DNA of 64,000 bases from a virus (lineage: Duplodnaviria; Caudoviricetes), in IMG/VR virus record IMGVR_UViG_2576861548_000003, positions 45,909 through 109,908 of that record; one strand, given 5' to 3'. Both the position numbers and the translations under genes were made by a program. The notes beneath the pieces were generated by a model. It saw nothing but the letters and a program-made list of their open reading frames with translations. It was not told the origin of the DNA and searched no databases. This document shows, piece after piece, positions 20,368 through 38,766 of the stretch (positions are counted from its first letter, which is position 1; the number at the start of each line of letters is the position of its first letter).

Positions 20368-20437
20368 GCGGAAATAGCTCATCGGTAGAGCGTTGGCATT
20401 CCAGCCAAAGAGTGGGGTTCGATTCCCTGTTTCCGCT
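20368..20437 (+). tRNA. Atypical tRNA-Gly(TCC)-like
   Basis: GCGGAAA/TTTCCGC+T73, D-arm GCTC/GAGC, T-loop TTCGATT; anticodon arm TTGGC-ATTCCA-GCCAA (6- or 8-nt loop). Confidence 0.7.
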
Positions 20438-20511
20438 CTAATGCCGTTAAACTCGGCTCGTTGATTGAGGTTGTGTAAAGTAAGCGACAAGGTTCGATTC
20501 CTTGCATTTAG
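20438..20511 (+). ncRNA. tRNA-like element without a normal anticodon loop
   Basis: Perfect T-arm CAAGG-TTCGATT-CCTTG, GCCG/CGGC hairpin, TCGTT/AGCGA stem around a 20-nt loop, imperfect acceptor CTAATG/CATTTAG. Confidence 0.4.
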
Positions 20512-20556
20512 TTGGTACTGCAAACAATCTGACAGCGTGGAAAGACACGCAAATTT

Positions 20557-20712
20557 GGTAGTATGGCGGAATTGGTAGACGCTGACAACTCTTAGTAGAC
20601 TTGGTTACGATGTTATGAAAACTGGGCATCATTGTAAAACGAACCAATCCAGTGTTACACGGAAGATGTAGAAGATTGCCAAGCATTGCAGGTTCGAGTT
20701 CTGCTGCTACCT
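20557..20712 (+). tRNA. tRNA-Leu-like RNA with a ~105-nt structured insert in place of the anticodon/variable arms
   Basis: Acceptor GGTAGTA/TGCTACC, Leu-type D-arm TGGCGGAATTGGTAGACGC, T-arm GCAGG-TTCGAGT-TCTGC. Confidence 0.6.
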
Positions 20713-20739
20713 CAACCCTTATAGTAGCGATAAGCAAAA

Positions 20740-20834
20740 GCAAGAACATTAAAGCTTGTACAGTTTACGGGGTGATGGAAATTGCCATCTGACACGACTG
20801 AAAGAAGCCGAATAAATTGCATAGGTGTTCTTGC
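20740..20834 (+). ncRNA. Unidentified ~95-nt structured RNA
   Basis: GCAAGAACAT/GTGTTCTTGC, TGTACAGTTTA/TAAATTGCATA, CGG/CCG and GATGG/CCATC nested helices. Confidence 0.5.
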
Positions 20835-20867
20835 AAATAGCTTGAAGAATAGTTAGATTTGTGTTAA

Positions 20868-20897
20868 GCCTGCCGGGAATACGCCCGGTAGGCATTT
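20868..20897 (+). terminator. GC-rich hairpin closing the RNA cluster
   Basis: GCCTGCCGGG-AATACG-CCCGGTAGGC-ATTT; U-tract is weak. Confidence 0.55.
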
Positions 20898-20936
20898 AGT
20901 GCAAAATGTATATGAAGTTATATACAACTTAAATAT

Positions 20937-21836
20937 ATGAACGATAAAGGACTAATAAGAGCATGTGAAAACTCCGGCTGTGGTTGGAAGTGTTGTTCGT
21001 TCGGATCAGACGGACATATTGTAATTTTGCCCCATGAATTTGACGGGCATGAAAAAGAAATCTCCCATTTACAGATTATAGACGATGATTACTTTGGCGG
21101 TAAAAAGGTAAAATGTATCGCTAAAGATTGCAAATCATGTGACAATGGTTACAAGCCTATTATGTGTCGTACTTATCCTTTGTGGGTAAAATCAGTGAAA
21201 AAAAGTTTTGTGTTTCGTAGTGGTAAGTGTCCGCTAAATAATGAACAACTTGCTAAACATAAGGAGTTTGTATTAGACATTTTCAACAATTACAGAAAAG
21301 TGCTGTTGCCTGAAAATGATATAGACACATTCCTTTCAAAAGCATGGATTGACCGTTACGAACCGCTGTTCCCAATAAAGAAGGAAAGCACAGAGTACAA
21401 GATGCAGGTCAAATCTTTATCTATGTCTGATATATCAGATATTGAAAAGATGGAGCAGACGCTTCTTCGCAATCCAGATATGTGTTTCGCATCAGAGCCG
21501 GAAGACATAGCCAAATGCTTGGAATCAGGTTGCAGTTATGGGTTATTCGTAAATGACAAACTGGCTGCCTATTCTCTTGCATACTTCACAGAATACGGTA
21601 CTGCCTATGTGGATAAATGCTTTGTTCATTCTGATTACAGAGGGAATGGATTCCAATACGTACTTCTCAATTCTAATATTGCTAAATTAATATCTAATGG
21701 GGTCCAGGAAATCTATGCCATGGTCTCACCGAAAAATGAAGCAAGTATCAAGAGTTTCATTAATGCAGGATTTTCTTTTAAACGAGATAGCAAATACAAA
21801 GAGATTGAACGTTTAATCTTAAAGTGGGAACTATGA
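20937..21836 (+). CDS. Cys-cluster (YkgJ-like) domain fused to a GNAT acyltransferase
   Basis: CENSGCGWKCC...KPIMCRTYP N-domain; C-domain FVHSDYRGNGFQ (acyl-CoA motif A) and NEASIKSFINAGF. Confidence 0.8.
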   Translation: MNDKGLIRACENSGCGWKCCSFGSDGHIVILPHEFDGHEKEISHLQIIDDDYFGGKKVKCIAKDCKSCDNGYKPIMCRTYPLWVKSVKKSFVFRSGKCPLNNEQLAKHKEFVLDIFNNYRKVLLPENDIDTFLSKAWIDRYEPLFPIKKESTEYKMQVKSLSMSDISDIEKMEQTLLRNPDMCFASEPEDIAKCLESGCSYGLFVNDKLAAYSLAYFTEYGTAYVDKCFVHSDYRGNGFQYVLLNSNIAKLISNGVQEIYAMVSPKNEASIKSFINAGFSFKRDSKYKEIERLILKWEL

Positions 21837-22711
21837 AAGTTGTTGTCTATACCAAGAATATAATAGAGAACATTGAAAAGGCGCAAAGCTTTATTAATGT
21901 TCCTATCTCGTTAATGTTCAAAGATTTCTACGAGGATATTTATGGACATATCGCGGATAAAATAAACAATAAGATTTTTGGGCTTCATTTAAAAGATAGT
22001 ATATGTTATTCTATTGGCAAAGCGACAAAAGATAATAGTGGTGCCGTGGTGACATCATTTACTGATGTTTGGCAATATCTTAATATCAATGGTATCGCAT
22101 GTCAAGGAATACATAATTTCTACATTCCGATTAATGCTTGTGATGATAGAGAAGGTTTAAGTTGTTATGAAGCAAGTAAGTTGGCCAATGAAATAAGAAT
22201 GATTTCAAGCTCCCATATATATGGCTTGATTACTTCTGGATGTCTGAATGAAAACCATCCCTCGGAAAAAGAATTGTACCGTATTTGGAAAAGCCTACGC
22301 GATAATATTGAATCTATTAGTTTGGGTGGTAGCTTTTGGCTTGGACAAGAAACTAAGATCCCAGAATTCACAAGCGATGTTCGTATTGGTGAATATATGC
22401 TGTTTGGCACAATCCCATATTGTGATTATGAGGTGAGAAAAGGTCTTAATGGCATAGAAATCGAAACAAGGGTTATAGGTATTTACCCAGAACGTAATCA
22501 ATTGATTTTGGATTGTGGCTATTCAATGGTAGACTTAGATAAGTGTCAAATTAGTGATTGTACCAATTTGAAGTTTGTAGATAGTTCTAGTGAATACTCA
22601 ATTATGGAGTGTGACCATGTCTCAGATTATTGCATTGGTGATGTGGTTACGTTTGTTCCCAATTATAAATCATTAGTCAAGTTGAGATATGCAGAACATG
22701 AATATAGATAA
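21833..22711 (+). CDS. PLP-dependent alanine/ornithine racemase-family protein
   Basis: N-terminal MFK (putative PLP lysine), DDREG, ISLGGS, VRIGEYMLFG, SSSEY and IGDVVTFVPNY parallel ornithine racemase motifs; ATGA overlap with the previous gene. Confidence 0.75.
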   Translation: MKVVVYTKNIIENIEKAQSFINVPISLMFKDFYEDIYGHIADKINNKIFGLHLKDSICYSIGKATKDNSGAVVTSFTDVWQYLNINGIACQGIHNFYIPINACDDREGLSCYEASKLANEIRMISSSHIYGLITSGCLNENHPSEKELYRIWKSLRDNIESISLGGSFWLGQETKIPEFTSDVRIGEYMLFGTIPYCDYEVRKGLNGIEIETRVIGIYPERNQLILDCGYSMVDLDKCQISDCTNLKFVDSSSEYSIMECDHVSDYCIGDVVTFVPNYKSLVKLRYAEHEYR

Positions 22712-24776
22712 ACCTTGGATTGATTATATATCCAATCGTACATTTGGCATGGAACTGGAGTTTGCCGATGGTGACAAACAACGCATCCCGCTTCCATCCG
22801 GTTACAAGTGGACGGACAACAAGTTGACCATGATGAACAATTCGGATGGTTCGGCAGTTACGCATCACGGCCAGTTCGGTGGTGAGATAAACACCCGTCC
22901 ATACCATTACTGCGCTGAAGACCTTCAGGAGTTGAAAGACTTCATTCATACCATGAAAGATGCGGGAAGCTATCTTATGTGGAATGAAGGCTTTGATGCG
23001 CATCTGTACATCAAGGATATGGACCTGGATGTTATCAAGCGTATGTTTGTCCTCTCTTATTATACTGCATATCCAATCAAACGGATATTTGATATTGCGG
23101 AGTGGTGGGAAACAAAATATCTCGTACCAAGCCCTCCTTGGGATGTAGTGAAGCGTGTATTGGAAGCAGATACTATTGAGAATCTACTGAAAGTTTTTAG
23201 CAATGGTTCAGATCGAGGACACATCCGGTACTGGCTTAATTTATGTTCTATTGAAAAGATAGGAACGGCAGAATTTAGGATCTTCAATAGCTCCTGGGAT
23301 TTCGATAAAATACTGGAAACAATCAAATTCATGTATTCGTTTGTGGAGTACGCCTACCTGCATGAAGATATGGAAGAGTATAAGCAACTCACCACAATTG
23401 ATAGGTGCCTTGAAGTGTTCAATATAGACTATTCTAAGGTTCCCCAAAGACATAAACCGTTACTTTGGGCAGCAGAACACTCGGATAATGTTACAATAGT
23501 AGGCTCCATGTTTAAGAAATCCAACCGTATGCTTTCCTTTATCAAGAAAGAGGCTTCCAAATTCGATGTAGCCCATGTGGTAAACTCGTATTATATGGAT
23601 ATAGAGCAAATACTTACCAACCGTGAGATTAAGGTGTATACAAAGGAGTATTTTATCTACATGATGTATAAGGCAATCAAGGGAGAGATAAAAGAACTGC
23701 GCTTTAATGAAGAATATGAGTTTCTAAGTATTAAATCTGAAAATCCTGCTGAAATTATTGCCACTATTCACCTTTTTAATGCCATCAAAAAGCATAAGAA
23801 TTCACAGGATATTTATCACAAATCGCTTTATGACGATTTTATGGCAAAGTTAGAGCATTACCATAAGAAGTATACGGAACGTTATCAAAAGCTAGTAGAT
23901 AACCTTAAAAGTAAGTCTATTGAAGTGCTTTATTGTGCTGATATATCGGATGCGATTCTTAACTGTAAAGAGGATGATATACTAATCTATCAGAATGAAT
24001 TTCATTCCGGAATGAAAGCTACGAGTAACGCATTGCAACGTTTCTTATTGGATGATTTTGGATCTCAAGAAAGAACTAAAACGAAATATGCAGAAATAGA
24101 TGAAGAACAAGTTAATTACATGGCTCTCTCGCAGCATGGATTTATGGGCAGAAGAGAGGTATTCAAAGACCAACGCACATATATTTGGTCTAATGTGGTA
24201 GAAAGCGGAGATAGTAGCTTTAACAAGCGAACTATCGTTCCTTTAAAATATAAACGGCTTCCGGATGATTATATGCTTACGGATAAAAGCAAACTCCGGT
24301 TTGTACGTGCTTCTATGGCAGAGATTGATTATCTGCGTATGATTTACTTGAAAAAGGGTATTCTCCTCGGTTCTGCACCATTCTGTTACTTATGGTTCTT
24401 GGATGATTATGTGTTTGGGGCTTGTATGTTTGATTTCCTGAAGGTAAGCAAATACGGCATGGATGCAGTTTGGATGAAGTCGGATTTCGTGATAGACCAT
24501 CCATTGCCCAAATTGAGTAGATTGCTAATTATGGGTGTACTTTCGTCAGAGTTCAAAGATGAATTGGACATAAGATATAAACATGAATGTGGAGTGATTG
24601 CTACTTCTGTATTTACCGATAAACCGGTAAGTATGAAGTATCGGGGAGTGTTTAAACTGCATGAACGCTGTGTTGGTAAACTCCATTACATACAAGATGC
24701 AGGCATTCGTGGCAACTTAGATGATATTTTAAAAGATTTTGTGAAAAAATACGGTGATGAGCCGAGAAAGGAATAA
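22689..24776 (+). CDS. Amidoligase-2 (COOH-NH2 ligase) domain fused to a degenerate methyltransferase-like domain and a C-terminal Mom-like GNAT domain
   Basis: RTFGMELE..DGS..GEINT..AHLY..RYWLN..GTAEFRIF; C-terminal KSDFVI..KLSRLL..TSVFTDKPVSMKYRGVF typical of phage ParB-linked DNA-modification proteins. Confidence 0.75.
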   Translation: MQNMNIDKPWIDYISNRTFGMELEFADGDKQRIPLPSGYKWTDNKLTMMNNSDGSAVTHHGQFGGEINTRPYHYCAEDLQELKDFIHTMKDAGSYLMWNEGFDAHLYIKDMDLDVIKRMFVLSYYTAYPIKRIFDIAEWWETKYLVPSPPWDVVKRVLEADTIENLLKVFSNGSDRGHIRYWLNLCSIEKIGTAEFRIFNSSWDFDKILETIKFMYSFVEYAYLHEDMEEYKQLTTIDRCLEVFNIDYSKVPQRHKPLLWAAEHSDNVTIVGSMFKKSNRMLSFIKKEASKFDVAHVVNSYYMDIEQILTNREIKVYTKEYFIYMMYKAIKGEIKELRFNEEYEFLSIKSENPAEIIATIHLFNAIKKHKNSQDIYHKSLYDDFMAKLEHYHKKYTERYQKLVDNLKSKSIEVLYCADISDAILNCKEDDILIYQNEFHSGMKATSNALQRFLLDDFGSQERTKTKYAEIDEEQVNYMALSQHGFMGRREVFKDQRTYIWSNVVESGDSSFNKRTIVPLKYKRLPDDYMLTDKSKLRFVRASMAEIDYLRMIYLKKGILLGSAPFCYLWFLDDYVFGACMFDFLKVSKYGMDAVWMKSDFVIDHPLPKLSRLLIMGVLSSEFKDELDIRYKHECGVIATSVFTDKPVSMKYRGVFKLHERCVGKLHYIQDAGIRGNLDDILKDFVKKYGDEPRKE

Positions 24777-24779
24777 TAT

Positions 24780-25481
24780 ATGGGAAAATTCAAGATAGCG
24801 GAAGTGCAATTATCTGACATTAAACTGGTCAAGAAAAATGCGCATTTCATGCAGCAGGACACGTTTAATGCCTTAGTGAATAACATTCGTAGAGACGGTC
24901 AATTATCGTCTGTACCATTCTGTGTAAAGCATTCGGATGGCTCTTATACGGTGGTGAGTGGTAATCACCGAACACAAGCGGCAAAAATGGCTGGGCTTAC
25001 TTCCATCCATGTTATGTACATAGATGAAGAGGAGACTACAAACGATTGGTTGCTGGCAACACAATTGTCACATAACAGTATAGTTGGGCAAGACGATGCG
25101 GAGATTTTGAAGCAATTGCTTGATGAAATAACAGATGTCGCACTGAAAGAATATGCGCATATCAGTAATGAAGTTCTGGAAAGTGTGAAGGACATTAACT
25201 ATACGGTTGAAATGCCGAATAATGAAATCGTCCCGGTAACTCTTATGTTTGTTGATACGCAGAAAACCGCATTCGATAAGTTGATGGAAACATTGGATTG
25301 CTATTCTGAAAAAGAACTTGGCAATCTTACTTTGGTAGATATGGATACAATGCACCGGTTGAATGAAGTATCGGCTAAAGTACAAGCCAAGTATAAAATC
25401 AAGGCCCAGGCTTTGAGTATTTGCAAAATGTTGGAAATTGTAAATAATGTATTGGAGGGTAATGCGGATGGAGAAAGATAG
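24780..25481 (+). CDS. ParB/Srx N-terminal domain protein
   Basis: KNAHFM..LVNNIRRDG..VVSGNHRTQAA. Confidence 0.85.
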   Translation: MGKFKIAEVQLSDIKLVKKNAHFMQQDTFNALVNNIRRDGQLSSVPFCVKHSDGSYTVVSGNHRTQAAKMAGLTSIHVMYIDEEETTNDWLLATQLSHNSIVGQDDAEILKQLLDEITDVALKEYAHISNEVLESVKDINYTVEMPNNEIVPVTLMFVDTQKTAFDKLMETLDCYSEKELGNLTLVDMDTMHRLNEVSAKVQAKYKIKAQALSICKMLEIVNNVLEGNADGER

Positions 25482-25839
25482 AAAATACAGGTTGAATACA
25501 AGGCAAAAGAAAACATTGTTTCTAAAAGCCCTTGATGCAAGACTTCTTAATGTGACGAAAGCATGCGAGGCCGCAAGTATATGTCGTTCTCTTGCTTATA
25601 AATGGAGAGAAAATGACCCCGAGTTTAAAGCGAAATGGGAAGAGGTTGAAGAAGCGTTCAAAGACAAAATAGAAACGTGTATGTTCACAAAAGCTATTAC
25701 GGAACAGGACAATACTATGCTTATTTGGCTAAGTAAAACTAAGCTTCGTGATAGAGGCTACGTAGAAAAGATTGAACAGGATTTGAACGTGAACCCGTTT
25801 GAAAAACTTATGCAGGAATTGCCAGATGATGAAGAATGA
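25468..25839 (+). CDS. Terminase small subunit
   Basis: HTH-like NVTKACEAASICRSLAYKWRENDPEF, RDRGY; immediately upstream of TerL. Confidence 0.75.
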   Translation: MEKDRKYRLNTRQKKTLFLKALDARLLNVTKACEAASICRSLAYKWRENDPEFKAKWEEVEEAFKDKIETCMFTKAITEQDNTMLIWLSKTKLRDRGYVEKIEQDLNVNPFEKLMQELPDDEE

Positions 25840-27350
25840 CAATAGCAGATGAAAAATCTTTGCGGAAAATCAAATCATGGACAGAAGACTGGAATAGGTT
25901 TGTGCGTGATGCTCTTAAAGCTCGTTTGGATAAGGAGCAACAGGATATTATTTCATCTGTGCAGTACAATCCTATGACAGCTGTTGCATCGGGAACAGCT
26001 CGTGGTAAGGACTTCGTGGCGGCCTGTGCATCTTTGTGTTTCATGTATCTTACTCCTCGTTGGAAAGATGGGAAGTTGACTAAAAACACTAAAATTGCTA
26101 TGACAGCGCCTACCGCTCGTCAAGTACAAAATATTATGATTCCGGAAATCTCACGTTTATACAGGAATGCAGGTTTCCTTCCGGGAAGATTGTTGTCGTC
26201 AGGTATAAAGACTGATTACGAAGAGTGGTTCCTGACGGGGTTTAAGGCGGGTGATGATAACACCGAAGCATGGTCCGGTTTTCACGCTGTAAATACGATG
26301 TTTGTTGTTACCGAAGCTTCTGGTATTTCTGAATCAACGTATAACGCCATTGAAGGTAACTTACAAGGTAATTCTCGTTTGCTTATCGTGTTTAATCCGA
26401 ATGTTACTACCGGTTATGCCGCACGCGCTATGAAGTCGGAGCGTTTTGCAAAATTTCGTTTGGATTCTCTTAATGCGGAGAATGTGGTATCTAAGAAAGC
26501 TGTAATTCCAGGACAGGTAAACTACGAGTGGGTTAAGGATAAAGTTGAGAATTGGTGTTCTCTGTTACAGAAAGCAGATTTCAATGAGGGAGAGGGAGAT
26601 TTTACATGGGAAGGTAAGTTATATCGTCCAAATGATCTTTTCCGTGTCAAGGTCAGAGGTATGTTCCCTAAAGTTTCCGAGGATGTACTTATACCTTATG
26701 AATGGATAGAAATAGCAAACAGAAATTGGCAGGAATTACAGGCAAGCGGCTTCATTCCATCCAAATCGTGCAAGTTAGGTGTTGACGTGGCTGGTATGGG
26801 ACGCGACAATAGTGTACTTTGTCCTCGATATGGTAACTATGTGGCGCAATTTGAAGTACATCAATCCGCTGGTCGAGCAGACCATATGCATGTAGTCGGT
26901 ATGGCGATACCCTATTTGAAGAAGAGGGGAGCTAAAGCATTTATTGATACGATAGGAGAGGGGGCAGGTGTTTATTCCCGCTTGTTAGAAGAAGAATTTA
27001 CAAATGCTTTTTCATGTAAATATTCAGAAGGTGCGGATGGATTGCATGATATTACCGGAGAATATGAATTTGCCAATATGCGCGCATATTTGTATTGGGC
27101 TTTGCGCGACTGGCTCAATCCTAAAAATGGATTTGGTGCAGCTTTACCTCCATGTGACCAGTTAATGGAAGAAGCGACTGAAACTAAATGGAAGTTTCTC
27201 AGTAATGGAAAGATTATCATTGAGGCTAAAGAAGACATAAAAAAACGTATCAAGCGTTCTCCTGACTATATGGATGCATTAGCGAATACATTTTATCCTA
27301 GGGATTACAGCTTTATTAGCGATGAAGAGCTGCTCAAAGATTTTTTGTAG
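25836..27350 (+). CDS. Terminase large subunit
   Basis: Walker A-like SGTARGKD, VVTEASG, FNPN coupling motif, LGVDVAG nuclease motif, SPDYMDAL. Confidence 0.92.
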   Translation: MTIADEKSLRKIKSWTEDWNRFVRDALKARLDKEQQDIISSVQYNPMTAVASGTARGKDFVAACASLCFMYLTPRWKDGKLTKNTKIAMTAPTARQVQNIMIPEISRLYRNAGFLPGRLLSSGIKTDYEEWFLTGFKAGDDNTEAWSGFHAVNTMFVVTEASGISESTYNAIEGNLQGNSRLLIVFNPNVTTGYAARAMKSERFAKFRLDSLNAENVVSKKAVIPGQVNYEWVKDKVENWCSLLQKADFNEGEGDFTWEGKLYRPNDLFRVKVRGMFPKVSEDVLIPYEWIEIANRNWQELQASGFIPSKSCKLGVDVAGMGRDNSVLCPRYGNYVAQFEVHQSAGRADHMHVVGMAIPYLKKRGAKAFIDTIGEGAGVYSRLLEEEFTNAFSCKYSEGADGLHDITGEYEFANMRAYLYWALRDWLNPKNGFGAALPPCDQLMEEATETKWKFLSNGKIIIEAKEDIKKRIKRSPDYMDALANTFYPRDYSFISDEELLKDFL

Positions 27351-27377
27351 TTGTGTTTCTTTTAGTACCTTTGTAAC

Positions 27378-27446
27378 CGAAAACACTTCTTTTGTGTTTT
27401 CATTGCTCTTATGTGCACTGGCTTGTGAAAGTCGGTGCCATTTTTG
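27378..27446 (+). ncRNA. Candidate trans-acting antisense sRNA
   Basis: -7 box TACCTTTG (27366-27373), 5' hairpin GAAAACAC/GTGTTTTC, seed TGTTTTCATTGCTCTTAT, terminator GCACTGGCT-TGTGAA-AGTCGGTGC-CATTTTT. Confidence 0.65.
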
Positions 27447-27588
27447 TTCTATGTCAAAAGTTAAATCTTTGATTTAGAGAGGTTTGTTGTAAAAATAAAA
27501 GTGCAAATGTTTGGATAACTCGTTGATAATTATTATCTTTACAATACAAAAAGAAACCAATAATACTAACAATTAAAAGACAAGGGCA

Positions 27589-27771
27589 ATGAAAGCAACA
27601 ACAATCCAACAGAGAATAATAGAAAAGTTCATCATGTCAGAGTTTGTACAAGGTAACTTAGATACAAAAGAACAGGTTAGCTGTATGCTTATCCTAATTC
27701 AAAAGAAGCTGAATATGTCAGTAGAGCAAGCAAGTGACTTTATGAGAAAATCAATTGGTATTAACGCTTAA
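27589..27771 (+). CDS. Hypothetical protein (insert between terL and portal)
   Basis: 60 aa behind a duplicated promoter/leader. Confidence 0.55.
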   Translation: MKATTIQQRIIEKFIMSEFVQGNLDTKEQVSCMLILIQKKLNMSVEQASDFMRKSIGINA

Positions 27772-27782
27772 TACACACGATT

Positions 27783-30349: not shown

Positions 30350-30718
30350 ATGAAGACAAAAATATCAAACTGGCTTATTAGATTAGCAGAAAAAATCAAT
30401 CCACAAGAAAGATTGAGCAGTATTGAACGAGTTGATAACTACGAAGCAAAGAAGCTTGGTATCTGCCTTGCCAGAACTAAAAAAGAAATCAAGGATTACC
30501 GGAAAAAGAAGAAACTTGATGAAGGGTGGTCCAATCGTAAAGCCGATGAAATGCTTATCAGAGAACTTAAGAACGAAGTGCGCCAGTCAATCAACAACTC
30601 TATCAACCAAAGAGGGTTGGTTGAATACTCCGTTGAAAAGGTTGGTGACGAACTTCATGTTACCGGTGAAATCAAAGTCTATATCAAAAAAGAATCACAT
30701 GAAAGTTCCAATAGATGA
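30350..30718 (+). CDS. Hypothetical protein
   Basis: 122-aa ORF. Confidence 0.6.
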   Translation: MKTKISNWLIRLAEKINPQERLSSIERVDNYEAKKLGICLARTKKEIKDYRKKKKLDEGWSNRKADEMLIRELKNEVRQSINNSINQRGLVEYSVEKVGDELHVTGEIKVYIKKESHESSNR

Positions 30719-31061
30719 AATGACGTTTGCCGAAAGCGAATATCATAGAGGTAACAAAATATGGAATGCCCAAACGTTATACGATTTTGCTAAGGCAAAA
30801 GAGTATCCAGTTATGGATATGCCACTTTGGTGCATTGATTTGACTACTGAAGCATTTGAATGCAGCCAACTTCATAGTTTCATATTCCAATGCAAGCGGG
30901 TTCGTAACTGTTCGCTTGATTATCCTATCATATTAGATGAAGTTGGCCAAATTGCTGATGGCTATCATCGTTTATGCAAAGCTATATTAGAGGGTAAGGA
31001 GACAATTAAAGCTATTCGGTTATTGGAAATGCCGGCACCTGATAGGATTGAGGAGGAATAA
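30699..31061 (+). CDS. ParB/Srx-like small protein
   Basis: YPIILDEVGQIADGYHRLCKA; start 30699 preferred over 30423. Confidence 0.75.
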   Translation: MKVPIDEMTFAESEYHRGNKIWNAQTLYDFAKAKEYPVMDMPLWCIDLTTEAFECSQLHSFIFQCKRVRNCSLDYPIILDEVGQIADGYHRLCKAILEGKETIKAIRLLEMPAPDRIEEE

Positions 31062-31445: not shown

Positions 31446-33062
31446 ATGGCAAAACCTAAAATTCCAAATCAGAAAAAGAAGTATCAAGAACTTAACAGTC
31501 GGATAAATAGGTATGTCGTTCTTGTTGAGCAGATATACGACACACTGAATTTGGACGCCGCCAAAGCTGTTTCACGTACGGAATATTCCTCTGATAGCAA
31601 TAAACCGTTTAAATGGTCCGATTACCCTCAAACTAAAAAACAAATTGACGACATACAAAGGCATTTCGTAGAAGATATAAACGCAATTATCTATCGTGGT
31701 ACGACCGAAGAATGGAAAAATAGTAATGAAGCACAGGATTTGATAGCAAACAGAGTATTAAAAGCATATAACGCACAAGTTGATAGAGAGAAATATAAAG
31801 TTTTGTATCAAGTAAATTCTGATGCTCTGAAAGCATTTCAAAACCGGAAGGATAAAGGATTCAATATATCGGCAAAACTCTGGCAGCAATCTATGATCTA
31901 CAAAGAGGAATTGGAGGCTGCGATCTCATGCGCTATTCAAAAAGGAACCAGCGCTGTTACGTTGAGTAAGCAAATATCTCAATACTTACTTGATTTTCCA
32001 TCACTGCAAAAAGATTATAAAGACAGATACGGAAGTGCTGAACATATACAAGATTGTGAATACAGATCTATCCGCCTAGCCCGTTCGGAGATAAACATGG
32101 CTTATCGAACATCCGAAAATGAACGTTGGAAGCAAATGGATTTCGTAGTAGGATATGAAATTAAATTAAGTTCCTCTCATCACAACCGTATGCCACATGG
32201 AGATATTTGTGATACACTTGCCGGAAAATATCCTAAAGATTTCAGATGGACAGGATGGCACCCGAACGACTTATGTTATAAAGTCCCTATCCTCAAAACA
32301 GAAGAAGAATTCTGGGAATGGGATGGACTGAGCGATGTTTCTACAGAAAGTATTAATGAAGTAAAGGATGTTCCTGACGAATTTAAAAAATGGGTACTTG
32401 ACAACCAACAAAAGATTGAGAAAGCGCGGGAAAGAAACACCTTACCTTATTTTTTGAGAGATAACAAATCAATTGTTCAGAATATAAATACTGAAAATTC
32501 AGCTAAAGAGCTTGTTAATCGTGCTTCTTTAGTTGGGAAGGAGGTACAAAGTTTAGCAGAATCCATCGCTAAAAATAATAAAGGATTTGTAACTCCAATC
32601 AATTACAAAAGCATTTCATCAATAACAAGAAAAGCGACAACGGAGGGTATAACTCCATACGATATAAAAGACGCAGTTAGGACGACAATCATAGTTCCCA
32701 AATCACAAATAGATCAAGTCTTGAACGAACTATCTGAAAACGATTCGTTTGTGCGACTGAAAAGACAAAAGCCGGAATCATTTATGGGATATAGTGGCAA
32801 TATAGTTAATATTCAAACATCTAACGGATTAATTGCTGAGATTCAAGTTAATACAGACCGTATGATTTATGCCAAAGAAAAACCGGAAGACGCAAAACGA
32901 ATTCTTGGAGAAAAACGTTGGAAGGATATACAAAATCAAACAGGTATGAAGGGGGGGCTGGGGCATAAATATTATGAAGAATGGCGAGTATTAGACAAAG
33001 CTGATAAAAAGGCGCAAAAAATAGTTGAAAAATCAATCGAATATTATAGTCATTTCCAATAA
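31446..33062 (+). CDS. MuF-family minor head protein with C-terminal RelA/SpoT-type alarmone synthetase (Apk2-like) toxin domain
   Basis: MuF: RLARSEINMAY..CDTLAG.YPK.F.WTGWHP; C-terminal YKSISSITRK, IKDAVR, GYSG, AEIQVNT, GHKYYE. Confidence 0.85.
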   Translation: MAKPKIPNQKKKYQELNSRINRYVVLVEQIYDTLNLDAAKAVSRTEYSSDSNKPFKWSDYPQTKKQIDDIQRHFVEDINAIIYRGTTEEWKNSNEAQDLIANRVLKAYNAQVDREKYKVLYQVNSDALKAFQNRKDKGFNISAKLWQQSMIYKEELEAAISCAIQKGTSAVTLSKQISQYLLDFPSLQKDYKDRYGSAEHIQDCEYRSIRLARSEINMAYRTSENERWKQMDFVVGYEIKLSSSHHNRMPHGDICDTLAGKYPKDFRWTGWHPNDLCYKVPILKTEEEFWEWDGLSDVSTESINEVKDVPDEFKKWVLDNQQKIEKARERNTLPYFLRDNKSIVQNINTENSAKELVNRASLVGKEVQSLAESIAKNNKGFVTPINYKSISSITRKATTEGITPYDIKDAVRTTIIVPKSQIDQVLNELSENDSFVRLKRQKPESFMGYSGNIVNIQTSNGLIAEIQVNTDRMIYAKEKPEDAKRILGEKRWKDIQNQTGMKGGLGHKYYEEWRVLDKADKKAQKIVEKSIEYYSHFQ

Positions 33063-33086
33063 AAATCACTATCTTTACATATAAAA

Positions 33087-33818: not shown

Positions 33819-33856
33819 AAAAGTGGCGTTGTTTATGTCACTTTTGCTACTTTTGT
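33819..33856 (+). promoter_or_regulatory. Operator-promoter unit upstream of the capsid operon
   Basis: AAAAGTGGC-gttgtttat-GTCACTTTT-gc-TACTTTTG. Confidence 0.7.
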
Positions 33857-34024
33857 ATCAGAAGCGTATGAAGATGTACGCCACAGAACTTGTCGTGTTG
33901 TGATTTGCTTCAATTTAGCACGATTGAACGAAACTCATTGCTCTAATGTTTAGTAAAGTTCTAAGCGAATAGTCTGCTGGCATACGTGCTACGCAGACTA
34001 TTTTTGTAATTAAAACATTGTACA

Positions 34025-34744: not shown

Positions 34745-34761
34745 TCAAAAGTAAAATTAAA

Positions 34762-35163: not shown

Positions 35164-35177
35164 AAAGGAGGTGAAAG

Positions 35178-36515
35178 ATGAATGAATCATTATTTATTGA
35201 ATTTGTAAAAAAAATATGGCCCAAATTGAGCCTATATGTGAAAGAAAAGATCAATGGAACAAATAAGAATTTGACCTATCTTCACAAAACTATGCTTACC
35301 AGAGTATATTCTCCTGATCAAAAATGGGAAGGTACTTCTGCTAACACTACTTATGTAGCAGCGGATATGGTAGCTATGGATTCTCCTTTGTCTCCCAAGA
35401 AACGTGACTCTATTGCACGTTCTAGTGGTGAATTGCCTAAAGTTGGTATTAAAAAGATTCTGAGAGAAACTCAGATCAACGCTATTAATATCATGAAAGC
35501 ACATTTGTCTAATGCCACTACAGAGGAAGCGCAAAAATCTCTCAAAAACAGAATCTTTTCTCGATTAACTGATGACGGAACCGCATGTTCTGTTGGTATT
35601 GATGAAAGGAATGAAGCTAATTTCCTTACTGGGCTGTCTGATGGGGTTATTATTGTTGAAGGTGATGATGATAAAAATTCCGGTCTCGGACTTCGTGTAA
35701 ATTATGGTTATTTGCCAGAACATAGTTTTGGTGTTGTTACTACCGGAGAAGTAACAGGTGATGATATTGAAAGAGTTATAGGTAAAGCCAACGATGACGG
35801 GAATAGCATTTCTGTTATCATGTTAGCGTTGTCTACCTATAACAAAATGCGTCAATCTCAATGGGCTAAGGAATTGGTGGCAAGTTATCGAGGGCAAACC
35901 TTTGATAATGAAACAAAGTTGCCTGTTCCCACTTCTACGTTGTTTGATGAAGCATTTTCTGATCAATATAATGGCATTTCATTCTTTAAGATTGATCGTT
36001 CTGTCACTTATGAAAAGAATGGTAAAAGAGTTTCTTATAAGCCGTGGAACGCAAATAAACTTATATTCCTTCCTTCTGCTGACAATGTAGGTTCTTTTGT
36101 ATGGGGAACTTTGGCTGAATCTACTAACCCTGTCAAGGGAGTAGAATATACCATTGTTGATGAATATAAGCTGATTAGCCGTTACTCCAAAACAGACCCG
36201 TTGCAGGAATTTACGAATGGGCAGGCTCTTTGTTTGCCGGTTATTGAGAATGTAGACCAGATTTATTCATTGGATATTCTGGAAGCTCAAACAGTAGATA
36301 CAACGAAAGAATCTGAGGATTCTACTGATGTAAAGATTACGATTTGGGGAGTAACTTACAAGAAGCCAGAATTTGTGACAGAATACAATAAAATCGCTGG
36401 TAAAAACTTGACTTCCACCGTTTCCGATGATAAACTTATCGCGGCAGTCAACAGATTGAGTGATGCAGACGAAGCATCGTTGAAAAAAGCGGTTGAATCC
36501 CATAAAACAACATAA
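35178..36515 (+). CDS. Major capsid protein
   Basis: 445 aa, position; AADMVAMDSP..SGELPK and ALCLPVI segments. Confidence 0.8.
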   Translation: MNESLFIEFVKKIWPKLSLYVKEKINGTNKNLTYLHKTMLTRVYSPDQKWEGTSANTTYVAADMVAMDSPLSPKKRDSIARSSGELPKVGIKKILRETQINAINIMKAHLSNATTEEAQKSLKNRIFSRLTDDGTACSVGIDERNEANFLTGLSDGVIIVEGDDDKNSGLGLRVNYGYLPEHSFGVVTTGEVTGDDIERVIGKANDDGNSISVIMLALSTYNKMRQSQWAKELVASYRGQTFDNETKLPVPTSTLFDEAFSDQYNGISFFKIDRSVTYEKNGKRVSYKPWNANKLIFLPSADNVGSFVWGTLAESTNPVKGVEYTIVDEYKLISRYSKTDPLQEFTNGQALCLPVIENVDQIYSLDILEAQTVDTTKESEDSTDVKITIWGVTYKKPEFVTEYNKIAGKNLTSTVSDDKLIAAVNRLSDADEASLKKAVESHKTT

Positions 36516-36518
36516 TCC

Positions 36519-36857
36519 ATGAAGACAATTCAGCAAGCCCTTATAGACGAAATACATTACCCGATTCCAGCTGGTTTTGTAGAGAATGTTATGATTAAAC
36601 GTAATCTCAAAGTTGATGAAGAGTTTGATTATGACGTTTCTCGTTCCAACGAATATCAGGGGGCATTAGCTGATTGTCTTTGGTCTTTAGTTCAGTCTAT
36701 CAATTTTTCTGAAGCAGATAAGTCTTTTGGAGCTTTATCTGATAAAGACAAAGAGCGAATTTTGTTACGTGTCAACTCTATCTACAATACTATTGGTGAG
36801 CCTTCGGTAGAACTGGAGGCAAAGCCGATGGTATATGTAGGTGATTGCTTGTTGTAG
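36519..36857 (+). CDS. Head-tail adaptor
   Basis: Synteny, size, NFSEADKS. Confidence 0.6.
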   Translation: MKTIQQALIDEIHYPIPAGFVENVMIKRNLKVDEEFDYDVSRSNEYQGALADCLWSLVQSINFSEADKSFGALSDKDKERILLRVNSIYNTIGEPSVELEAKPMVYVGDCLL

Positions 36858-36858
36858 A

Positions 36859-37185
36859 ATGGCAGTATTGAATAGAAAACCCCACCGTTTGTCATATCTT
36901 GTATCCGGTTCTGGATATGATGATGAAAACGGCGATTATCATCCCGGTTCCTCTGAATGGAAAGGCGTGATACCTTGTGATGCCGTACCTGCTGGAAAAG
37001 CGGAACAAAGAGAGTTTGAGGATGGTGTTGTAAGAAGCTATTCATACACGGTTTATCTTCCAAGTGATTGTCGTACGTTTACTATTGGAGACAGGGTTAA
37101 GATTGATCTTATCGGAGAAATTGAAAGAGAATTTGAAGTGAAAGGTTTTCATCGTTACCAGCTTCAGTGTAAAATTTGGGTTTAG
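36859..37185 (+). CDS. Head closure/stopper protein
   Basis: Synteny; GYDDENGDY, IGDRV. Confidence 0.6.
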   Translation: MAVLNRKPHRLSYLVSGSGYDDENGDYHPGSSEWKGVIPCDAVPAGKAEQREFEDGVVRSYSYTVYLPSDCRTFTIGDRVKIDLIGEIEREFEVKGFHRYQLQCKIWV

Positions 37186-37188
37186 GAT

Positions 37189-37650
37189 ATGGGTATAAGA
37201 ATGGCTACCAAACTTGATGAAATTCATAATACACTTATGAGGGAGGCACAACGGGTTGAAAGGCTAACAATACGCGCTTTGTCGTATCTTGGAGAACAAT
37301 GTGTTATCAGGGTACGTGATAGAGGTGGTGATAAAAGTTGGTATGATCAGTCTGGTAATTTGCGTAGTTCAGTTGGCTATGTAATAGCCCGTAATGGCAG
37401 TATTATCCAATACTCGGACTTTAATCAGGTGAAGCAGGGTTCACAAGGTGTAAAAGTCGGTAAAGACCTGGCAGAAGAACTGGCTAGAAGATATTCCAAT
37501 GACTATGTTCTTGTTATTGTTGCCGGAATGAATTATGCTGAATATGTAGAAGCGATGGATAACAAGGATGTATTAGCATCAACGGAGCTATGGGCTATAG
37601 AACAGGTCCCTAAGATGCTTGAAAAACTGAAAAAACAGATTGCTAGATGA
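37189..37650 (+). CDS. Neck/tail completion protein (HK97 gp10-like)
   Basis: DQSGNLRSS...GMNYAEYVE. Confidence 0.75.
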   Translation: MGIRMATKLDEIHNTLMREAQRVERLTIRALSYLGEQCVIRVRDRGGDKSWYDQSGNLRSSVGYVIARNGSIIQYSDFNQVKQGSQGVKVGKDLAEELARRYSNDYVLVIVAGMNYAEYVEAMDNKDVLASTELWAIEQVPKMLEKLKKQIAR

Positions 37651-38069
37651 AATCGGACATTGAAATACAGAAGTTTGTCTATCACAAGATTAAAGGTACA
37701 GCTCTTGAACAAAATGTTACTGGAAAATTGAGTGATAGAGGTAGACCTAACAAATCAGACAAGGAAGATATTGTCATATCAGTACTTGCTAATGAGGGGT
37801 GCGGTCAAATTCAACGGGCTTATGTGAATATCAATGTTTACGTTAGTGACCAATGGAATGAAGATACGAAACAATGGGAACGAAATACAGTCCGTGTAGG
37901 CAAATTATGCGAATTATGTAAGTTCCTTTTCTCCATACGAGAGGAAGAGTATCATACGGTACCTAAGCAATGTTCTCAGAAAACCATTCCAACAGGAGTG
38001 ACCTTTGAAGATGGACATACCGAACATTTCATTAATAACAAACTGTATATTGAGATAAATAACGAATAA
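37647..38069 (+). CDS. Tail terminator
   Basis: Synteny and size. Confidence 0.55.
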   Translation: MKSDIEIQKFVYHKIKGTALEQNVTGKLSDRGRPNKSDKEDIVISVLANEGCGQIQRAYVNINVYVSDQWNEDTKQWERNTVRVGKLCELCKFLFSIREEEYHTVPKQCSQKTIPTGVTFEDGHTEHFINNKLYIEINNE

Positions 38070-38098
38070 TTATTAACTATATTAAATGATATAGAATT

Positions 38099-38647
38099 AT
38101 GGCAGTAATCGGGTGGGGGAAACCACGTATATTTATTAAAGATTTGGATGCAAGTTCTCCAAAGTGGGAAGAGCTTCCGACTCCTGTAGAGGATTCTACA
38201 CAATTGACAACAACCAAAGGAGATAAACAGGAAGCCAAGATTGAAGGTGGGGAAAACGAAGACGTAAAGTATGGCAAAAATACTTATGCTCTTGCTCTCA
38301 ACATTCGTGCCGCAAAGGGACGCAAAAGACCTATTAGTGATAGTGATGGTGTAGTTGCTCACAATTACGCTATTGCGTTACAGCCGGAGGATCCGGAAGT
38401 TCAGGGTTTCTGTATGGAAAAGACTACTGTTTCTGTTGAAGATACATTTACTACGGCAGATGGTGGTGTTTGGGCGTATATGTTTGATGCATTAAAACCT
38501 GGTGCCGACAAAAAGCAAATTCAATGGGGTAAAATTATTGTAACTCCGAACACTGGTACACCAACTAAAATTGAATGTGATCCAGAAGATGAATCCGGAG
38601 ATGGGGATAAGTTTGAAGTAGCTCCTAATCCTGGTATAGGAGGTTAA
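38099..38647 (+). CDS. Major tail tube protein
   Basis: Synteny; beta-rich 182 aa. Confidence 0.7.
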   Translation: MAVIGWGKPRIFIKDLDASSPKWEELPTPVEDSTQLTTTKGDKQEAKIEGGENEDVKYGKNTYALALNIRAAKGRKRPISDSDGVVAHNYAIALQPEDPEVQGFCMEKTTVSVEDTFTTADGGVWAYMFDALKPGADKKQIQWGKIIVTPNTGTPTKIECDPEDESGDGDKFEVAPNPGIGG

Positions 38648-38695
38648 GTTTTGATAGGTAATGCCGAGCGTGGGGGCGTAGTACCCACGTGTTTT

Positions 38696-38766
38696 GCGGA
38701 GATGGTGTAATGGTTGCATATATATCATCCAGATATCAGGTTACGGTTCAAGTCCGTATCTCCGCT
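38696..38766 (+). tRNA. Second atypical tRNA-Gly(TCC)-like gene
   Basis: GCGGAGA/TCTCCGC+T73, D-arm GTGT/GCAT, T-arm TACGG-TTCAAGT-CCGTA, anticodon loop CATCCAG (A instead of U33). Confidence 0.7.

What the first reader, a model, noticed from the sequence alone, without database searches (positions are those of the whole stretch)
20368..38766. Two tRNA-Gly genes with intact Gly identity but broken anticodon loops: possible non-ribosomal glycyl donors
Seen: 20368-20437 and 38696-38766 both keep perfect GCGGA acceptor stems, U73 and a TCC triplet, yet both have an aberrant CAT(T)CCAG loop (6/8 nt in one, A33 in the other). Known: non-proteinogenic tRNA-Gly species supply Fem-type GNAT ligases in staphylococci, and the GNAT-fold Mu Mom enzyme has been reported to use Gly-tRNA(Gly) to modify adenine. 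Inference: these are chargeable but ribosome-poor tRNAs feeding the Mom-like enzyme encoded ~2 kb downstream of the first copy. Alternatives are frameshift suppressors or nuclease decoys.
Basis: partly seen in the sequence, partly recalled or inferred. Interest (0 to 1): 0.72.

Follow-up and report, generated by a model that had tools for sequence, protein, structure and literature searches.

The report
Phage glycine tRNAs unfit for decoding
A gut Bacteroides-type prophage keeps two glycine tRNA look-alikes that still carry the marks for glycine loading but have abnormal anticodon loops, and one of them belongs to a widespread class of such RNAs that sit next to a DNA-modifying enzyme shaped like phage Mu Mom, so it is probably a private glycine carrier for DNA modification rather than for protein synthesis.

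Summary
Observation confirmed. Both genes exist (20368-20438, 38696-38767). They keep G1-C72, C2-G71, G3-C70, U73, C35 and C36. One has a 6-nt loop AUUCCA (or 8 nt with a 4-bp stem); the other has A33.

Both are conserved: tRNA#1 in 70 of 72 related loci, tRNA#2 in 67 of 78. Stems show compensatory changes. Loop positions 32-34 vary.

tRNA#1 lies 2.25 kb upstream of a 695-aa fusion protein (amidoligase, Dam-like domain, GNAT). For the GNAT domain the top solved structural match is Mu Mom (Z 11.3), formally tied with ordinary GNATs (Z 10.6).

Key test: 80 loci of distant ~435-aa Dam-like/GNAT homologues from unrelated phages. A model of these RNAs found 50 Gly-like tRNAs in 48 loci. Of these, 45 lie upstream on the same strand (median 73 nt). 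Only 3 other tRNAs were present (Met). C35/C36 are fixed, but position 33 is not U in 14 of 38 loops.

This supports a glycyl-donor role for tRNA#1.

tRNA#2 occupies a separate slot in the tail module. That slot also holds an aberrant tRNA-Gly in two phages without the enzyme, so its link is unproven.

No biochemistry exists. The scan has noted the same pairing on other genomes. My three searches found no paper describing phage-encoded tRNA-Gly beside Mom-like enzymes.

The parts
20368..20438 (+). tRNA#1: Gly-identity tRNA with a 6-nt loop AUUCCA (or an 8-nt loop CAUUCCAG on a 4-bp stem). No encoded CCA.
   Evidence: 53 bits; 71.5 bits. Conserved in 70 of 72 related loci. The bases flanking the loop are C-G in 36, U.G in 29 and C.A in 3 of 68 loci, and U-A in L209.
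38696..38767 (+). tRNA#2: tRNA-Gly(UCC) with A33 (loop CAUCCAG). No encoded CCA.
   Evidence: 63.3 bits. Homologue present in 67 of 78 loci, with loops CAUCCAG (13), CUACCAG (34) and CAACCAG (20).
38669..38689 (+). G+C-rich hairpin just upstream of tRNA#2. Its place is conserved in other clades although its sequence differs.
   Evidence: flank comparison of the window with L253, L255 and L232-L234.
19150..19611 (+). DUF488-family gene that opens the conserved module.
   Evidence: Pfam PF22751/PF04343. Its homologue lies upstream of the GNAT homologue in 20 of the 21 compared loci that hold DNA upstream of it; L162, with only 577 nt, shows none.
20937..21836 (+). 299-aa protein with a C-terminal GNAT that carries a CoA-type motif (YRGNGF). 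Likely an ordinary acyl-CoA acyltransferase that acts as a tailoring enzyme.
   Evidence: Pfam Acetyltransf_1, E 2.3e-7. PDB matches are only weak GNAT hits.
21824..22711 (+). 295-aa protein with a D-serine-dehydratase-like C-terminal domain. Putative PLP enzyme.
   Evidence: Pfam PF14031, E 4e-5. Weak match to PDB 3anu, E 0.15.
22689..24776 (+). 695-aa fusion protein: Amidoligase_2 (about aa 62-218), Dam-like domain (about aa 273-504, nt 23505-24200) and Mom-shaped GNAT (about aa 531-673, nt 24279-24707).
   Evidence: Pfam PF12224, PF22555 and PF22559. AF2 model with pLDDT 94.4. VIA-align gives Dam 2ore_D Z 11.7 and Mom 8bv8_B Z 11.3, rmsd 2.7 over 136 residues.
24780..25481 (+). ParB_N-like protein that closes the module, just before the small and large terminase genes.
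   Evidence: Conserved synteny.

Best explanation
tRNA#1 is a phage-encoded RNA descended from tRNA-Gly. It keeps everything bacterial GlyRS reads: G1-C72, C2-G71, G3-C70, U73, C35 and C36. It has given up the loop geometry needed for normal decoding.

Most likely the host GlyRS charges it, and it then hands glycine to the GNAT domain of the 695-aa protein. In that protein a Dam-like domain would hold a flipped adenine in double-stranded DNA, as Mu Mom does with host Gly-tRNA-Gly. The fused amidoligase, the neighbouring PLP-type enzyme and the CoA-type GNAT would then tailor the adduct before packaging.

tRNA#2 is a second RNA of the same make-up in a separate genomic slot. It may be a second donor, but its link to the enzyme is not shown.

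What is shown: conservation, identity elements, loop relaxation, genetic coupling and the fold. What is inferred: charging, poor ribosomal use, glycyl transfer and the chemistry.
For: 1. Identity elements stay fixed while the decoding positions drift.
- In 39 aligned Gly-like tRNAs, pairs 1-72 and 2-71 are invariant (39 of 39) and 3-70 is G-C in 38 of 39, while pairs 4-7 covary freely. C35, C36, U73 and G10 are also invariant.
- In 38 unique 7-nt loops from enzyme-linked RNAs: position 33 is U 24, C 6, A 5, G 3; position 34 is U 16, A 13, C 8, G 1; position 35 is C in 37 of 38; position 36 is C in 38 of 38; position 37 is A 16, C 10, G 7, U 5.
- The Gly identity set is taken from passages of PMC9976931.

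2. Genetic coupling.
- In 80 loci of ~435-aa Dam-like/GNAT homologues (about 20% identical to the window protein), ARAGORN found 38 tRNAs: 35 Gly or Gly-like and 3 Met.
- Model R1 found 50 Gly-like hits in 48 of the 80 loci. Of these, 45 are upstream on the same strand (median 73 nt, 43 within 400 nt), 4 are downstream and 1 is on the opposite strand.

3. In the window's wider family a Gly tRNA sits just upstream of the operon in diverged lineages with different acceptor stems.
- Examples are L060, L153, L154, L162, L209/L217, L245 and L246.
- Their loops are AUUCCA-type, CAUCCAG or canonical.

4. Three records hold a single tRNA match, and it is Gly-like: G004 and G005 (64% and 59% complete) and G007, which is complete with terminal repeats.

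5. The enzyme.
- The AF2 model has pLDDT 94.4.
- Dam fold: Z 11.7. For the GNAT domain the top solved match is Mom 8bv8_B, Z 11.3, rmsd 2.7 over 136 residues.
- There is no Q/RxxGxG/A motif. An invariant Ser sits at the N-cap of helix alpha3, where Mom's essential S124 lies.

6. Mom transfers glycine from Gly-tRNA-Gly to N6 of adenine in double-stranded DNA. Source: PMC13219725; I read the abstract, the Discussion and found passages.
Against: - Nothing has been tested at the bench.
- The enzyme is not a Mom-family member by sequence: PF25680 has no hit in the genome, BLASTP shows nothing meaningful, and hhalign gives probability 0.03.
In Foldseek, Mom ranked only 24th.
- The tRNA is not obligatory. 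R1 found none near the operon in L155-L157, L159-L161, L163, L164, L208, L211, L226, L229, L244 and L247-L249, and 32 of the 80 short-form loci have none.
- One metatranscriptome contig (run X6) joins 20130 to 20701. That is a variant without tRNA#1.
- Other tRNAs (Phe, Ser, Cys) share the same spot in the window clade, so it is also a tRNA island.
- GGA plus GGG make up 252 of 576 Gly codons in late genes, so decoding use by canonical-loop relatives is plausible.
- Mom accepts all host isoacceptors, so the need for a private tRNA is unclear.
- Among 80 true Mom-family loci, only 3 have a canonical tRNA-Gly 132-179 nt upstream, and 1 has a weak deformed hit.
- A tRNA#2-type gene persists in G014 and G015, which lack the enzyme.
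Confidence: 0.55

Rival explanations
1. They are decoding tRNAs whose positions 32-34 have changed so that a host anticodon nuclease, or another effector that reads the anticodon loop, no longer recognises tRNA-Gly(UCC). The phage would then keep translating GGN codons during defence.
For: - Changes cluster at positions 32-34 and recur independently. U33A appears in the window tRNA#2 clade, L245 and L154. U34A appears in two different backbones. U33C appears in G014/G015.
- Canonical-loop relatives exist (L153, L162, L246, L232).
- GGA is the second most used Gly codon in late genes, 172 of 576.
- The tRNA#2 slot persists in phages without the enzyme.
- A34 also appears in a tRNA-Val(AAC) in the same slot.
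- The concept is published in PMC10264068; I saw the title, the abstract listing and found passages.
- That tRNA-Gly(ACC) can read all four GGN codons is recalled (Boren et al. 1993), not checked here.
Against: - This reading does not explain why these RNAs sit a median of 73 nt upstream of one enzyme family in unrelated phages, where 50 Gly-like tRNAs stand against 3 others.
- Pyrimidine at position 37 in 15 of 38 loops, non-U33 in 14 of 38, and 6- or 8-nt loops are poor for decoding.
- PMC10264068 does not mention Gly, U33 or loop size.
- No nuclease specific for tRNA-Gly was identified here.
Confidence: 0.17
2. They are acceptor-stem decoys or spare substrates against host immune effectors that target tRNA-Gly through U73/G71, such as TacT-type GNAT toxins or toxSAS FaRel2. 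They would soak up the toxin rather than donate glycine.
For: - The conserved parts (first three acceptor pairs and U73) are the ones such effectors read. TacT identity is U73 plus G71 (passage of PMC9976931).
- FaRel2 selects tRNA-Gly and tRNA-Thr by the acceptor stem and is linked to anti-phage immunity (abstract listing of PMC11245113).
- This would fit tRNA#2 in phages that lack the enzyme.
Against: - C35 and C36 are also invariant, which matters for GlyRS but not for acceptor-stem readers.
- The tight linkage to the Dam-like/GNAT gene is left unexplained.
- No such toxin was examined in the host.
Confidence: 0.08
3. tRNA#1 is a frameshifting tRNA that reads a 4-base (8-nt loop) or 2-base (6-nt loop) codon at a programmed site in a phage gene.
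For: The loop size is abnormal. Expanded-loop tRNAs such as SufB2 cause +1 frameshifting (abstract listing only, 10.1101/2020.12.31.424971).
Against: - Genes of the window read as intact single frames and align end to end with homologues in phages that lack this tRNA.
- The bases flanking AUUCCA can pair in 65 of 68 loci, so the loop is more likely 6 nt.
- Relatives at the same position have normal 7-nt loops.
- No systematic search for frameshift sites was made.
Confidence: 0.03
4. They are decaying tRNA genes in tRNA-insertion hot spots, with no present function. This applies above all to tRNA#2.
For: - The intergenic stretch after tRNA#1 holds tRNA debris: a T-arm at 20488-20504 and a split tRNA-like at 20557-20713.
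- The neighbouring tRNA-Phe carries a private G34A change.
- A variant deleted for tRNA#1 exists.
Against: - Stems keep pairing through compensatory changes: 95.5% of cells paired and 17 of 21 pairs with double changes.
- Changes avoid C35, C36, the T-loop and the first three acceptor pairs.
- The genes are kept in 70 of 72 and 67 of 78 related loci.
Confidence: 0.07

Closest known systems
Phage Mu Mom (Pfam PF25680, PDB 8bv8) using host Gly-tRNA-Gly (Silva et al., Nat Commun 2026, PMC13219725)
   Same: - GNAT fold acting on adenine in double-stranded DNA; top solved structural match to the window GNAT domain (Z 11.3).
- No CoA glycine loop.
- A Ser at the alpha3 N-cap.
- Glycine tRNA is the partner molecule.
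   Different: - No sequence-level membership.
- Here the GNAT is fused to a Dam-like domain and an amidoligase, and it sits in an operon with a PLP-type enzyme and a CoA-type GNAT.
- Mu has no tRNA of its own and uses any host isoacceptor.
- Mom's HTH-like insertion was not examined here.
Non-proteinogenic tRNA-Gly of Staphylococcus aureus, which feeds Fem-type peptidoglycan transferases
   Same: Chargeable tRNA-Gly species set aside for a GNAT-fold transferase rather than for the ribosome (passage of PMC9976931).
   Different: - The staphylococcal species escape EF-Tu through T-stem pairs 49-65 and 51-63 and keep normal anticodon loops.
- Here the anticodon loop itself is altered.
- The acceptor substrate here would be DNA, and the genes are viral.
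Phage tRNAs with anticodon-loop changes that evade anticodon nucleases (van den Berg et al. 2023, PMC10264068)
   Same: Phage tRNAs that differ from host tRNAs in the anticodon loop.
   Different: - Those remain decoding tRNAs.
- That paper does not mention Gly, U33 or loop size.
- It describes no linkage to a DNA-modifying enzyme.
Gly-like tRNAs next to short Dam-like/GNAT (PF22559) genes in unrelated phages
   Same: Same identity set, same relaxed loop, same strand, and upstream of the same enzyme family.
   Different: - In the window the RNA lies 2.25 kb upstream (not about 73 nt), with two tailoring genes in between.
- No CCA is encoded.
- The enzyme has gained an amidoligase domain.
- A second Gly-like tRNA lies 14 kb downstream of the enzyme gene (18 kb from tRNA#1).

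Membership tests
Bacterial tRNA-Gly as a GlyRS substrate | G1-C72, C2-G71, (G3-C70), U73, C35 and C36 | tested here: met
   Both genes carry all of these. They are invariant or nearly so in 39 related RNAs. The identity set is taken from passages of PMC9976931.
Bacterial tRNA-Gly as a GlyRS substrate | Actual aminoacylation with glycine | not testable with these tools
   Needs charging assays or tRNA sequencing of infected cells.
Canonical elongator tRNA | 7-nt anticodon loop with U33 and a purine at position 37 | tested here: not met
   tRNA#1 has a 6-nt (or 8-nt) loop, and tRNA#2 has A33. In the wider class, non-U33 occurs in 14 of 38 loops and a pyrimidine at 37 in 15 of 38.
Mom family (PF25680) | Match to the family profile | tested here: not met
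   0 hits in the whole provirus record at E <= 1. The control, phage Mu, matches at E 2.8e-77. hhalign gives probability 0.03.
Mom family (PF25680) | GNAT fold closest to Mom | tested here: inconclusive
   8bv8_B has Z 11.3, rmsd 2.7 over 136 residues, and is the top GNAT row. The next GNATs have Z 10.6, within the tool's tie margin. Foldseek ranks Mom 24th.
Mom family (PF25680) | Essential residues R111 and S124 (paper numbering) | tested here: inconclusive
   An invariant Ser in the KLS motif lies at the N-cap of alpha3, like S124. The position matching R111 is K in close homologues and L in distant ones. The equivalence rests on an ungapped sequence match plus secondary structure, not on a viewed superposition.
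PF22559 'GNAT-phage-like' / Dam-like fusion family | Profile matches for both the GNAT-like and the Dam-like domain | tested here: met
   PF22559 E 1.1e-25, above its cut-off. PF22555 E 8.3e-5, 22.4 bits, below its 27-bit cut-off. The Dam fold is confirmed at Z 11.7.
Staphylococcal-type non-proteinogenic tRNA-Gly | T-stem pairs 49-65 and 51-63 changed so as to weaken EF-Tu binding | tested here: inconclusive
   tRNA#1 has U49.G65 and G50.U64 wobble pairs but G51-C63. tRNA#2 has U49-A65, A50-U64 and C51-G63. No affinity can be derived from this.
Frameshift-suppressor tRNAs | An expanded anticodon loop together with a gene that needs the shift | tested here: inconclusive
   The 8-nt reading is possible, but the flanking bases can pair in 65 of 68 loci. 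No split gene was seen, though no systematic search was made.

The most novel reading that the evidence does not exclude
Many phages carry their own translation-disabled tRNA-Gly as a private glycine carrier for a Dam-like/Mom-shaped acyltransferase. In this Bacteroides-type prophage the glycyl-adenine adduct would then be built up by a fused amidoligase, a PLP enzyme and a CoA-dependent GNAT into a DNA base not yet described. A second such tRNA is expressed with the tail genes.
Probability: 0.3. Interest if true: 0.85.

Novelty: new variant of a known kind. Interest (0 to 1): 0.72.

Why it matters
Mu Mom was shown in print only in 2026 (preprint 2023) to take glycine from charged tRNA to disguise DNA.

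If phages routinely bring a dedicated, non-decoding tRNA-Gly for Mom-shaped enzymes, three things follow:
- tRNA-dependent DNA hypermodification would be widespread.
- It could be predicted from sequence, by looking for a Gly-identity tRNA with a relaxed loop next to a PF22559 gene.
- It could be tested directly.

It would also give a second natural case, after the staphylococcal cell-wall tRNAs, of tRNAs kept out of translation, and here by a different route: the anticodon loop rather than the T-stem. The class offers natural sequence data on what GlyRS needs and what the ribosome needs.

For gut phage biology, it points to a multi-enzyme adenine modification pathway placed just before the packaging genes.

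Tried and rejected
- Single-sequence AF2 of the whole 695-aa protein failed (pLDDT 33.3). It was replaced by a 99-row alignment of residues 268-695.
- Sequence searches of the 695-aa, 299-aa and 295-aa proteins against PDB gave nothing useful.
- BLASTP and hhalign of Mom against the 695-aa family gave nothing.
- Near-identity DNA search of 'phages' with 19500-24500 gave one 166-nt match only.
- Two literature searches for natural 8-nt-loop or quadruplet tRNAs in phages returned reviews and engineering papers only.
- Three searches for phage-encoded tRNA-Gly with Mom or DNA modification found only the Mom paper and its preprint. The main text of the Mom paper has 0 occurrences of 'phage-encoded tRNA'.
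- PMC8989533 (thymidine hypermodification, passages only) and PMC7824862 (jumbo phages, passages only) gave background only.
- I first wrote that record G001 (L154) has the operon but no tRNA. Model R1 later found a CAUCCAG tRNA-Gly there that ARAGORN and Rfam had missed. That statement is withdrawn.
- Reads: only Logan contigs of RNA libraries were available. They cover both tRNAs (X1 and X2 contigs 19862-27647 and 36485-39300) but cannot show transcription, ends or charging.
- True Mom-family loci: R1 found 3 canonical tRNA-Gly upstream, 1 weak deformed hit and 2 unrelated tRNAs in 80 loci. This is weak support only. The sample is dominated by loci 46-64% identical to the query Mom homologue.
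- Not done: EF-Tu affinity, promoter assignment for Bacteroides-type promoters, a systematic frameshift-site search, comparison with host tRNA-Gly, and a fold of the 299-aa protein.

Full report
WHAT IS THERE

The window is the right-hand 64 kb of a 109,908-base IMG/VR provirus record. I did not test the host, but homologues of its enzyme occur in Bacteroidetes and Dysgonomonas MAGs.

ARAGORN finds three tRNAs in the window:
- tRNA-Phe(AAA) at 20070-20143.
- An unassignable tRNA with a two-base 'tc' anticodon at 20368-20438 (tRNA#1).
- tRNA-Gly(UCC) at 38696-38767 (tRNA#2).

Rfam's tRNA model scores tRNA#1 at 53 bits and leaves tRNA#2 below its gathering score.

From the sequence:
- tRNA#1 has a perfect 7-bp acceptor stem starting GCGGA, U73, a normal D-arm with GG and a normal T-loop. 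Its anticodon arm has 16 instead of 17 bases. That gives 5 bp with a 6-nt loop AUUCCA, or 4 bp with an 8-nt loop CAUUCCAG.
- tRNA#2 has a perfect acceptor stem starting GCGGA, U73 and a 7-nt loop CAUCCAG, that is A33 before UCC.
- Neither gene encodes CCA.

CONSERVATION OF tRNA#1

With the 695-aa protein as probe I fetched 72 related viral loci at 78-100% identity.
- tRNA#1 is present in 70 of 72. The two misses have no DNA, or too little, upstream.
- The neighbouring tRNA varies: Phe-GAA, Ser-GCU, Cys-GCA or none.
- Among the 68 copies within 12 substitutions, the two bases flanking AUUCCA are C-G in 36, U.G in 29 and C.A in 3.
- In a distant lineage (L209/L217, acceptor GCGUGUG) they are U-A.

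So a 6-nt loop closed by a pair is at least as good a reading as an 8-nt loop. One variant has GUUCCA.

CONSERVATION OF tRNA#2

tRNA#2 is present in 67 of 78 loci fetched with its downstream neighbour. The loops are:
- CAUCCAG in 13 loci.
- CUACCAG in 34 loci.
- CAACCAG in 20 loci.

Positions 33 and 34 change, while C35, C36, A37, G38, the acceptor stem and U73 stay. The stems change by compensation.

THE GENE NEIGHBOURHOOD OF tRNA#1

Downstream of tRNA#1 lie, in order:
- A 299-aa protein with a CoA-type GNAT (motif YRGNGF).
- A 295-aa protein with a D-serine-dehydratase-like domain.
- A 695-aa protein with Amidoligase_2, DAM-like-phage1 and GNAT-phage-like (PF22559) matches.
- A ParB_N protein.
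- The terminase, portal and head genes.

A DUF488 gene lies upstream. This module is conserved in all 25 loci I compared, wherever the DNA reaches, down to 28% identity of the large protein.

THE ENZYME

A 99-sequence alignment gave an AF2 model of residues 268-695 with mean pLDDT 94.4.

VIA-align on Foldseek's best 1000 chains gives:
- E. coli Dam: Z 11.7 for model residues 6-237.
- Mu Mom S124A (8bv8_B): Z 11.3, rmsd 2.7 Å over 136 residues, for model residues 264-406.
- Ordinary GNATs follow at Z 10.6 or lower.

Foldseek itself ranked Mom 24th.

The model places strand beta4 at residues 326-334 and helix alpha3 at 342-350. CoA-dependent GNATs have the Q/RxxGxG/A loop there (motif recalled). 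This family instead has an invariant Ser in a KLS motif. Mom has SES-R there, with the essential S124. The numbering offset of 10 was derived from W48, Y59, Y159 and W181 in the paper.

By sequence the protein is not a Mom-family member.

THE DECISIVE COMPARATIVE TEST

After my own odds stood at about one third, notes of this scan on other genomes suggested that odd tRNA-Gly genes accompany Dam-like/GNAT fusions. I tested that here.

The profile search had shown that most relatives are ~435-aa proteins without the amidoligase domain. With 42 of them (A5) I fetched 80 viral loci, 639 kb in all.

- ARAGORN found 38 tRNAs: 35 Gly or Gly-like and 3 Met.
- I aligned 39 Gly-like tRNAs from all sets (A6). 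The cloverleaf is paired in 95.5% of cells, against 63.9% in shuffles and 38-50% when slid. 17 of 21 pairs have changes on both sides, and 0 of 500 shuffles reach the score.
- Pairs 1-72 and 2-71 never vary, and 3-70 varies once. Pairs 4-7 vary freely.
- A covariance model built from A6 (R1) found 50 Gly-like hits in 48 of the 80 loci. Of these, 45 are upstream on the same strand, at a median of 73 nt, with 43 within 400 nt. Four lie 694-899 nt downstream, and one is on the opposite strand.
- In 38 unique 7-nt loops, position 33 is U in only 24, position 34 takes all four bases, position 37 is a pyrimidine in 15, position 35 is C in 37, and position 36 is C in 38. Two more loops have 6 and 8 nt.

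This is the pattern expected of RNAs selected for GlyRS recognition and not for decoding. They are tied to one enzyme family in unrelated phages.

The same class occurs at the same position in the window's wider family:
- L154 and L245 have CAUCCAG.
- L060 and L209/L217 have AUUCCA-type loops.
- L153, L162 and L246 have canonical loops.

WHAT SPEAKS AGAINST, OR LIMITS, THE DONOR READING

- The tRNA is not obligatory. R1 found none near the operon in 17 loci of the wider family, and 32 of the 80 short-form loci have none.
- In the clade of L156-L164 the only Gly tRNA lies about 18-20 kb downstream, in the tail module, with loop CUUCCAG or CUACCAG.
- That tail-module slot (after the homologue of 38099-38647 and a G+C-rich hairpin) is where the window's tRNA#2 lies. 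In one record it holds a tRNA-Val(AAC) instead.
- In G014 (100% complete) and G015 the same slot holds a tRNA-Gly with loop ACUCCAU (C33). Neither record has the 695-aa family, PF22559 or Mom; the positive controls matched.
- G014 has another packaging module and ordinary DNA methylases.

So tRNA#2 travels with the structural genes and not with the enzyme. Its role as a donor is possible in this phage but not shown.

- Among 80 loci of true Mom-family genes, only 3 have a canonical tRNA-Gly 132-179 nt upstream, and one has a weak deformed hit just after the gene.
- Mom accepts all three E. coli isoacceptors.
- GGA and GGG together make up 252 of 576 glycine codons of late genes.
- RNA-library contigs cover both tRNAs but prove no transcription. 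One contig joins 20130 to 20701 and thus lacks tRNA#1.

MECHANISM PROPOSED

Shown: the fold, the fusion, the genetic coupling, and identity retention with loop relaxation.

Inferred:
- Host GlyRS charges tRNA#1, after CCA addition by the host.
- The abnormal loop keeps it from competing in translation.
- The Dam-like domain flips and holds adenine.
- The Mom-shaped GNAT moves glycine to N6.
- The amidoligase, the PLP-type enzyme and the CoA-type GNAT tailor the adduct.
- ParB and the terminase follow, so that DNA is modified just before packaging.

I put 0.55 on the donor role of tRNA#1. I put clearly less, about 0.3, on the same role for tRNA#2.

RIVALS

- Decoding tRNAs that evade an anticodon-loop effector: 0.17. 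This fits tRNA#2 best.
- Acceptor-stem decoys against toxins that target tRNA-Gly: 0.08.
- Decaying tRNA genes: 0.07.
- Frameshifting tRNA: 0.03.

NOVELTY

Mom's use of Gly-tRNA is published. So are the staphylococcal non-proteinogenic tRNA-Gly species.

In three full-text searches I found no paper describing phage-encoded Gly tRNAs coupled to Mom-like or Dam-like/GNAT enzymes. The Mom paper's main text does not mention them.

This scan has noted the same pairing on other DNA several times. Here it was tested afresh.

What this window adds:
- A Bacteroides-type prophage family with an enlarged operon.
- A 6/8-nt loop variant.
- A second Gly-like tRNA whose slot is independent of the enzyme.

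Noticed in passing
window 20070-20143 (anticodon first base at 20104): tRNA-Phe has anticodon AAA here. Every tRNA-Phe that ARAGORN called in the 60 related loci scanned has GAA. RNA-library contigs X5 and X6 read G at 20104, while X1 and X2 read A. This is a private G34A change, which would be hazardous in a split codon box.
   Followed up: partly
window 20557-20713: A third tRNA-like gene, seen only when ARAGORN allows introns: perfect acceptor stem, class-II-like D-arm and good T-arm, called 'Lys(CUU)', with an 80-nt insert in the anticodon loop. That is too short for a group I intron.
   Followed up: partly
window 20488-20504: An isolated T-arm-like hairpin (CAAGG-UUCGAUU-CCUUG) without a recognisable rest of a tRNA. 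Probably a tRNA remnant.
   Followed up: no
window 20130 joined to 20701: One metatranscriptome contig (run X6) joins the T-loop of tRNA-Phe to the T-loop of the split tRNA-like, skipping 570 nt that include tRNA#1. This is a natural deletion variant or an assembly artefact.
   Followed up: no
L235 (record G002), the slot syntenic with window 38696-38767: In one related phage the tail-module tRNA slot holds tRNA-Val with anticodon AAC. This is another A34 tRNA of a four-codon box.
   Followed up: no
G000:C1:8431-8500 (minus strand; outside the window): An unusual tRNA-Glu(UUC) with an A/U-rich acceptor stem elsewhere in the same provirus record.
   Followed up: no
window 23490-24200 compared with alignments A4 and A5: The short ~435-aa relatives keep methylase-like motifs in the Dam-like domain (consensus CSGNF and FPPTYKGGYE). 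The window's long form has diverged at both (IYQNEF in place of the second). The Dam-like domain here is therefore probably a non-methylating adenine binder. The motif meaning is recalled, not tested.
   Followed up: no
window 31446-33062: The head-morphogenesis protein also matches a PHROG annotated as Bxa ADP-ribosyltransferase (E 7e-69).
   Followed up: no
window 40182-40667 and 38650-43000: An HNH endonuclease, two minus-strand genes and tRNA#2 fill the space between the tail genes and the tape-measure gene (43040-47122). This is an accessory-gene hot spot.
   Followed up: no
L339 10987-11625 (record G014): The homologue of window 30423-31061 aligns in one frame at 73% identity, yet the ORF list shows no open frame of 90 aa or more across its first part (10987-11229). 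An in-frame stop is possible; the translation was not inspected.
   Followed up: no
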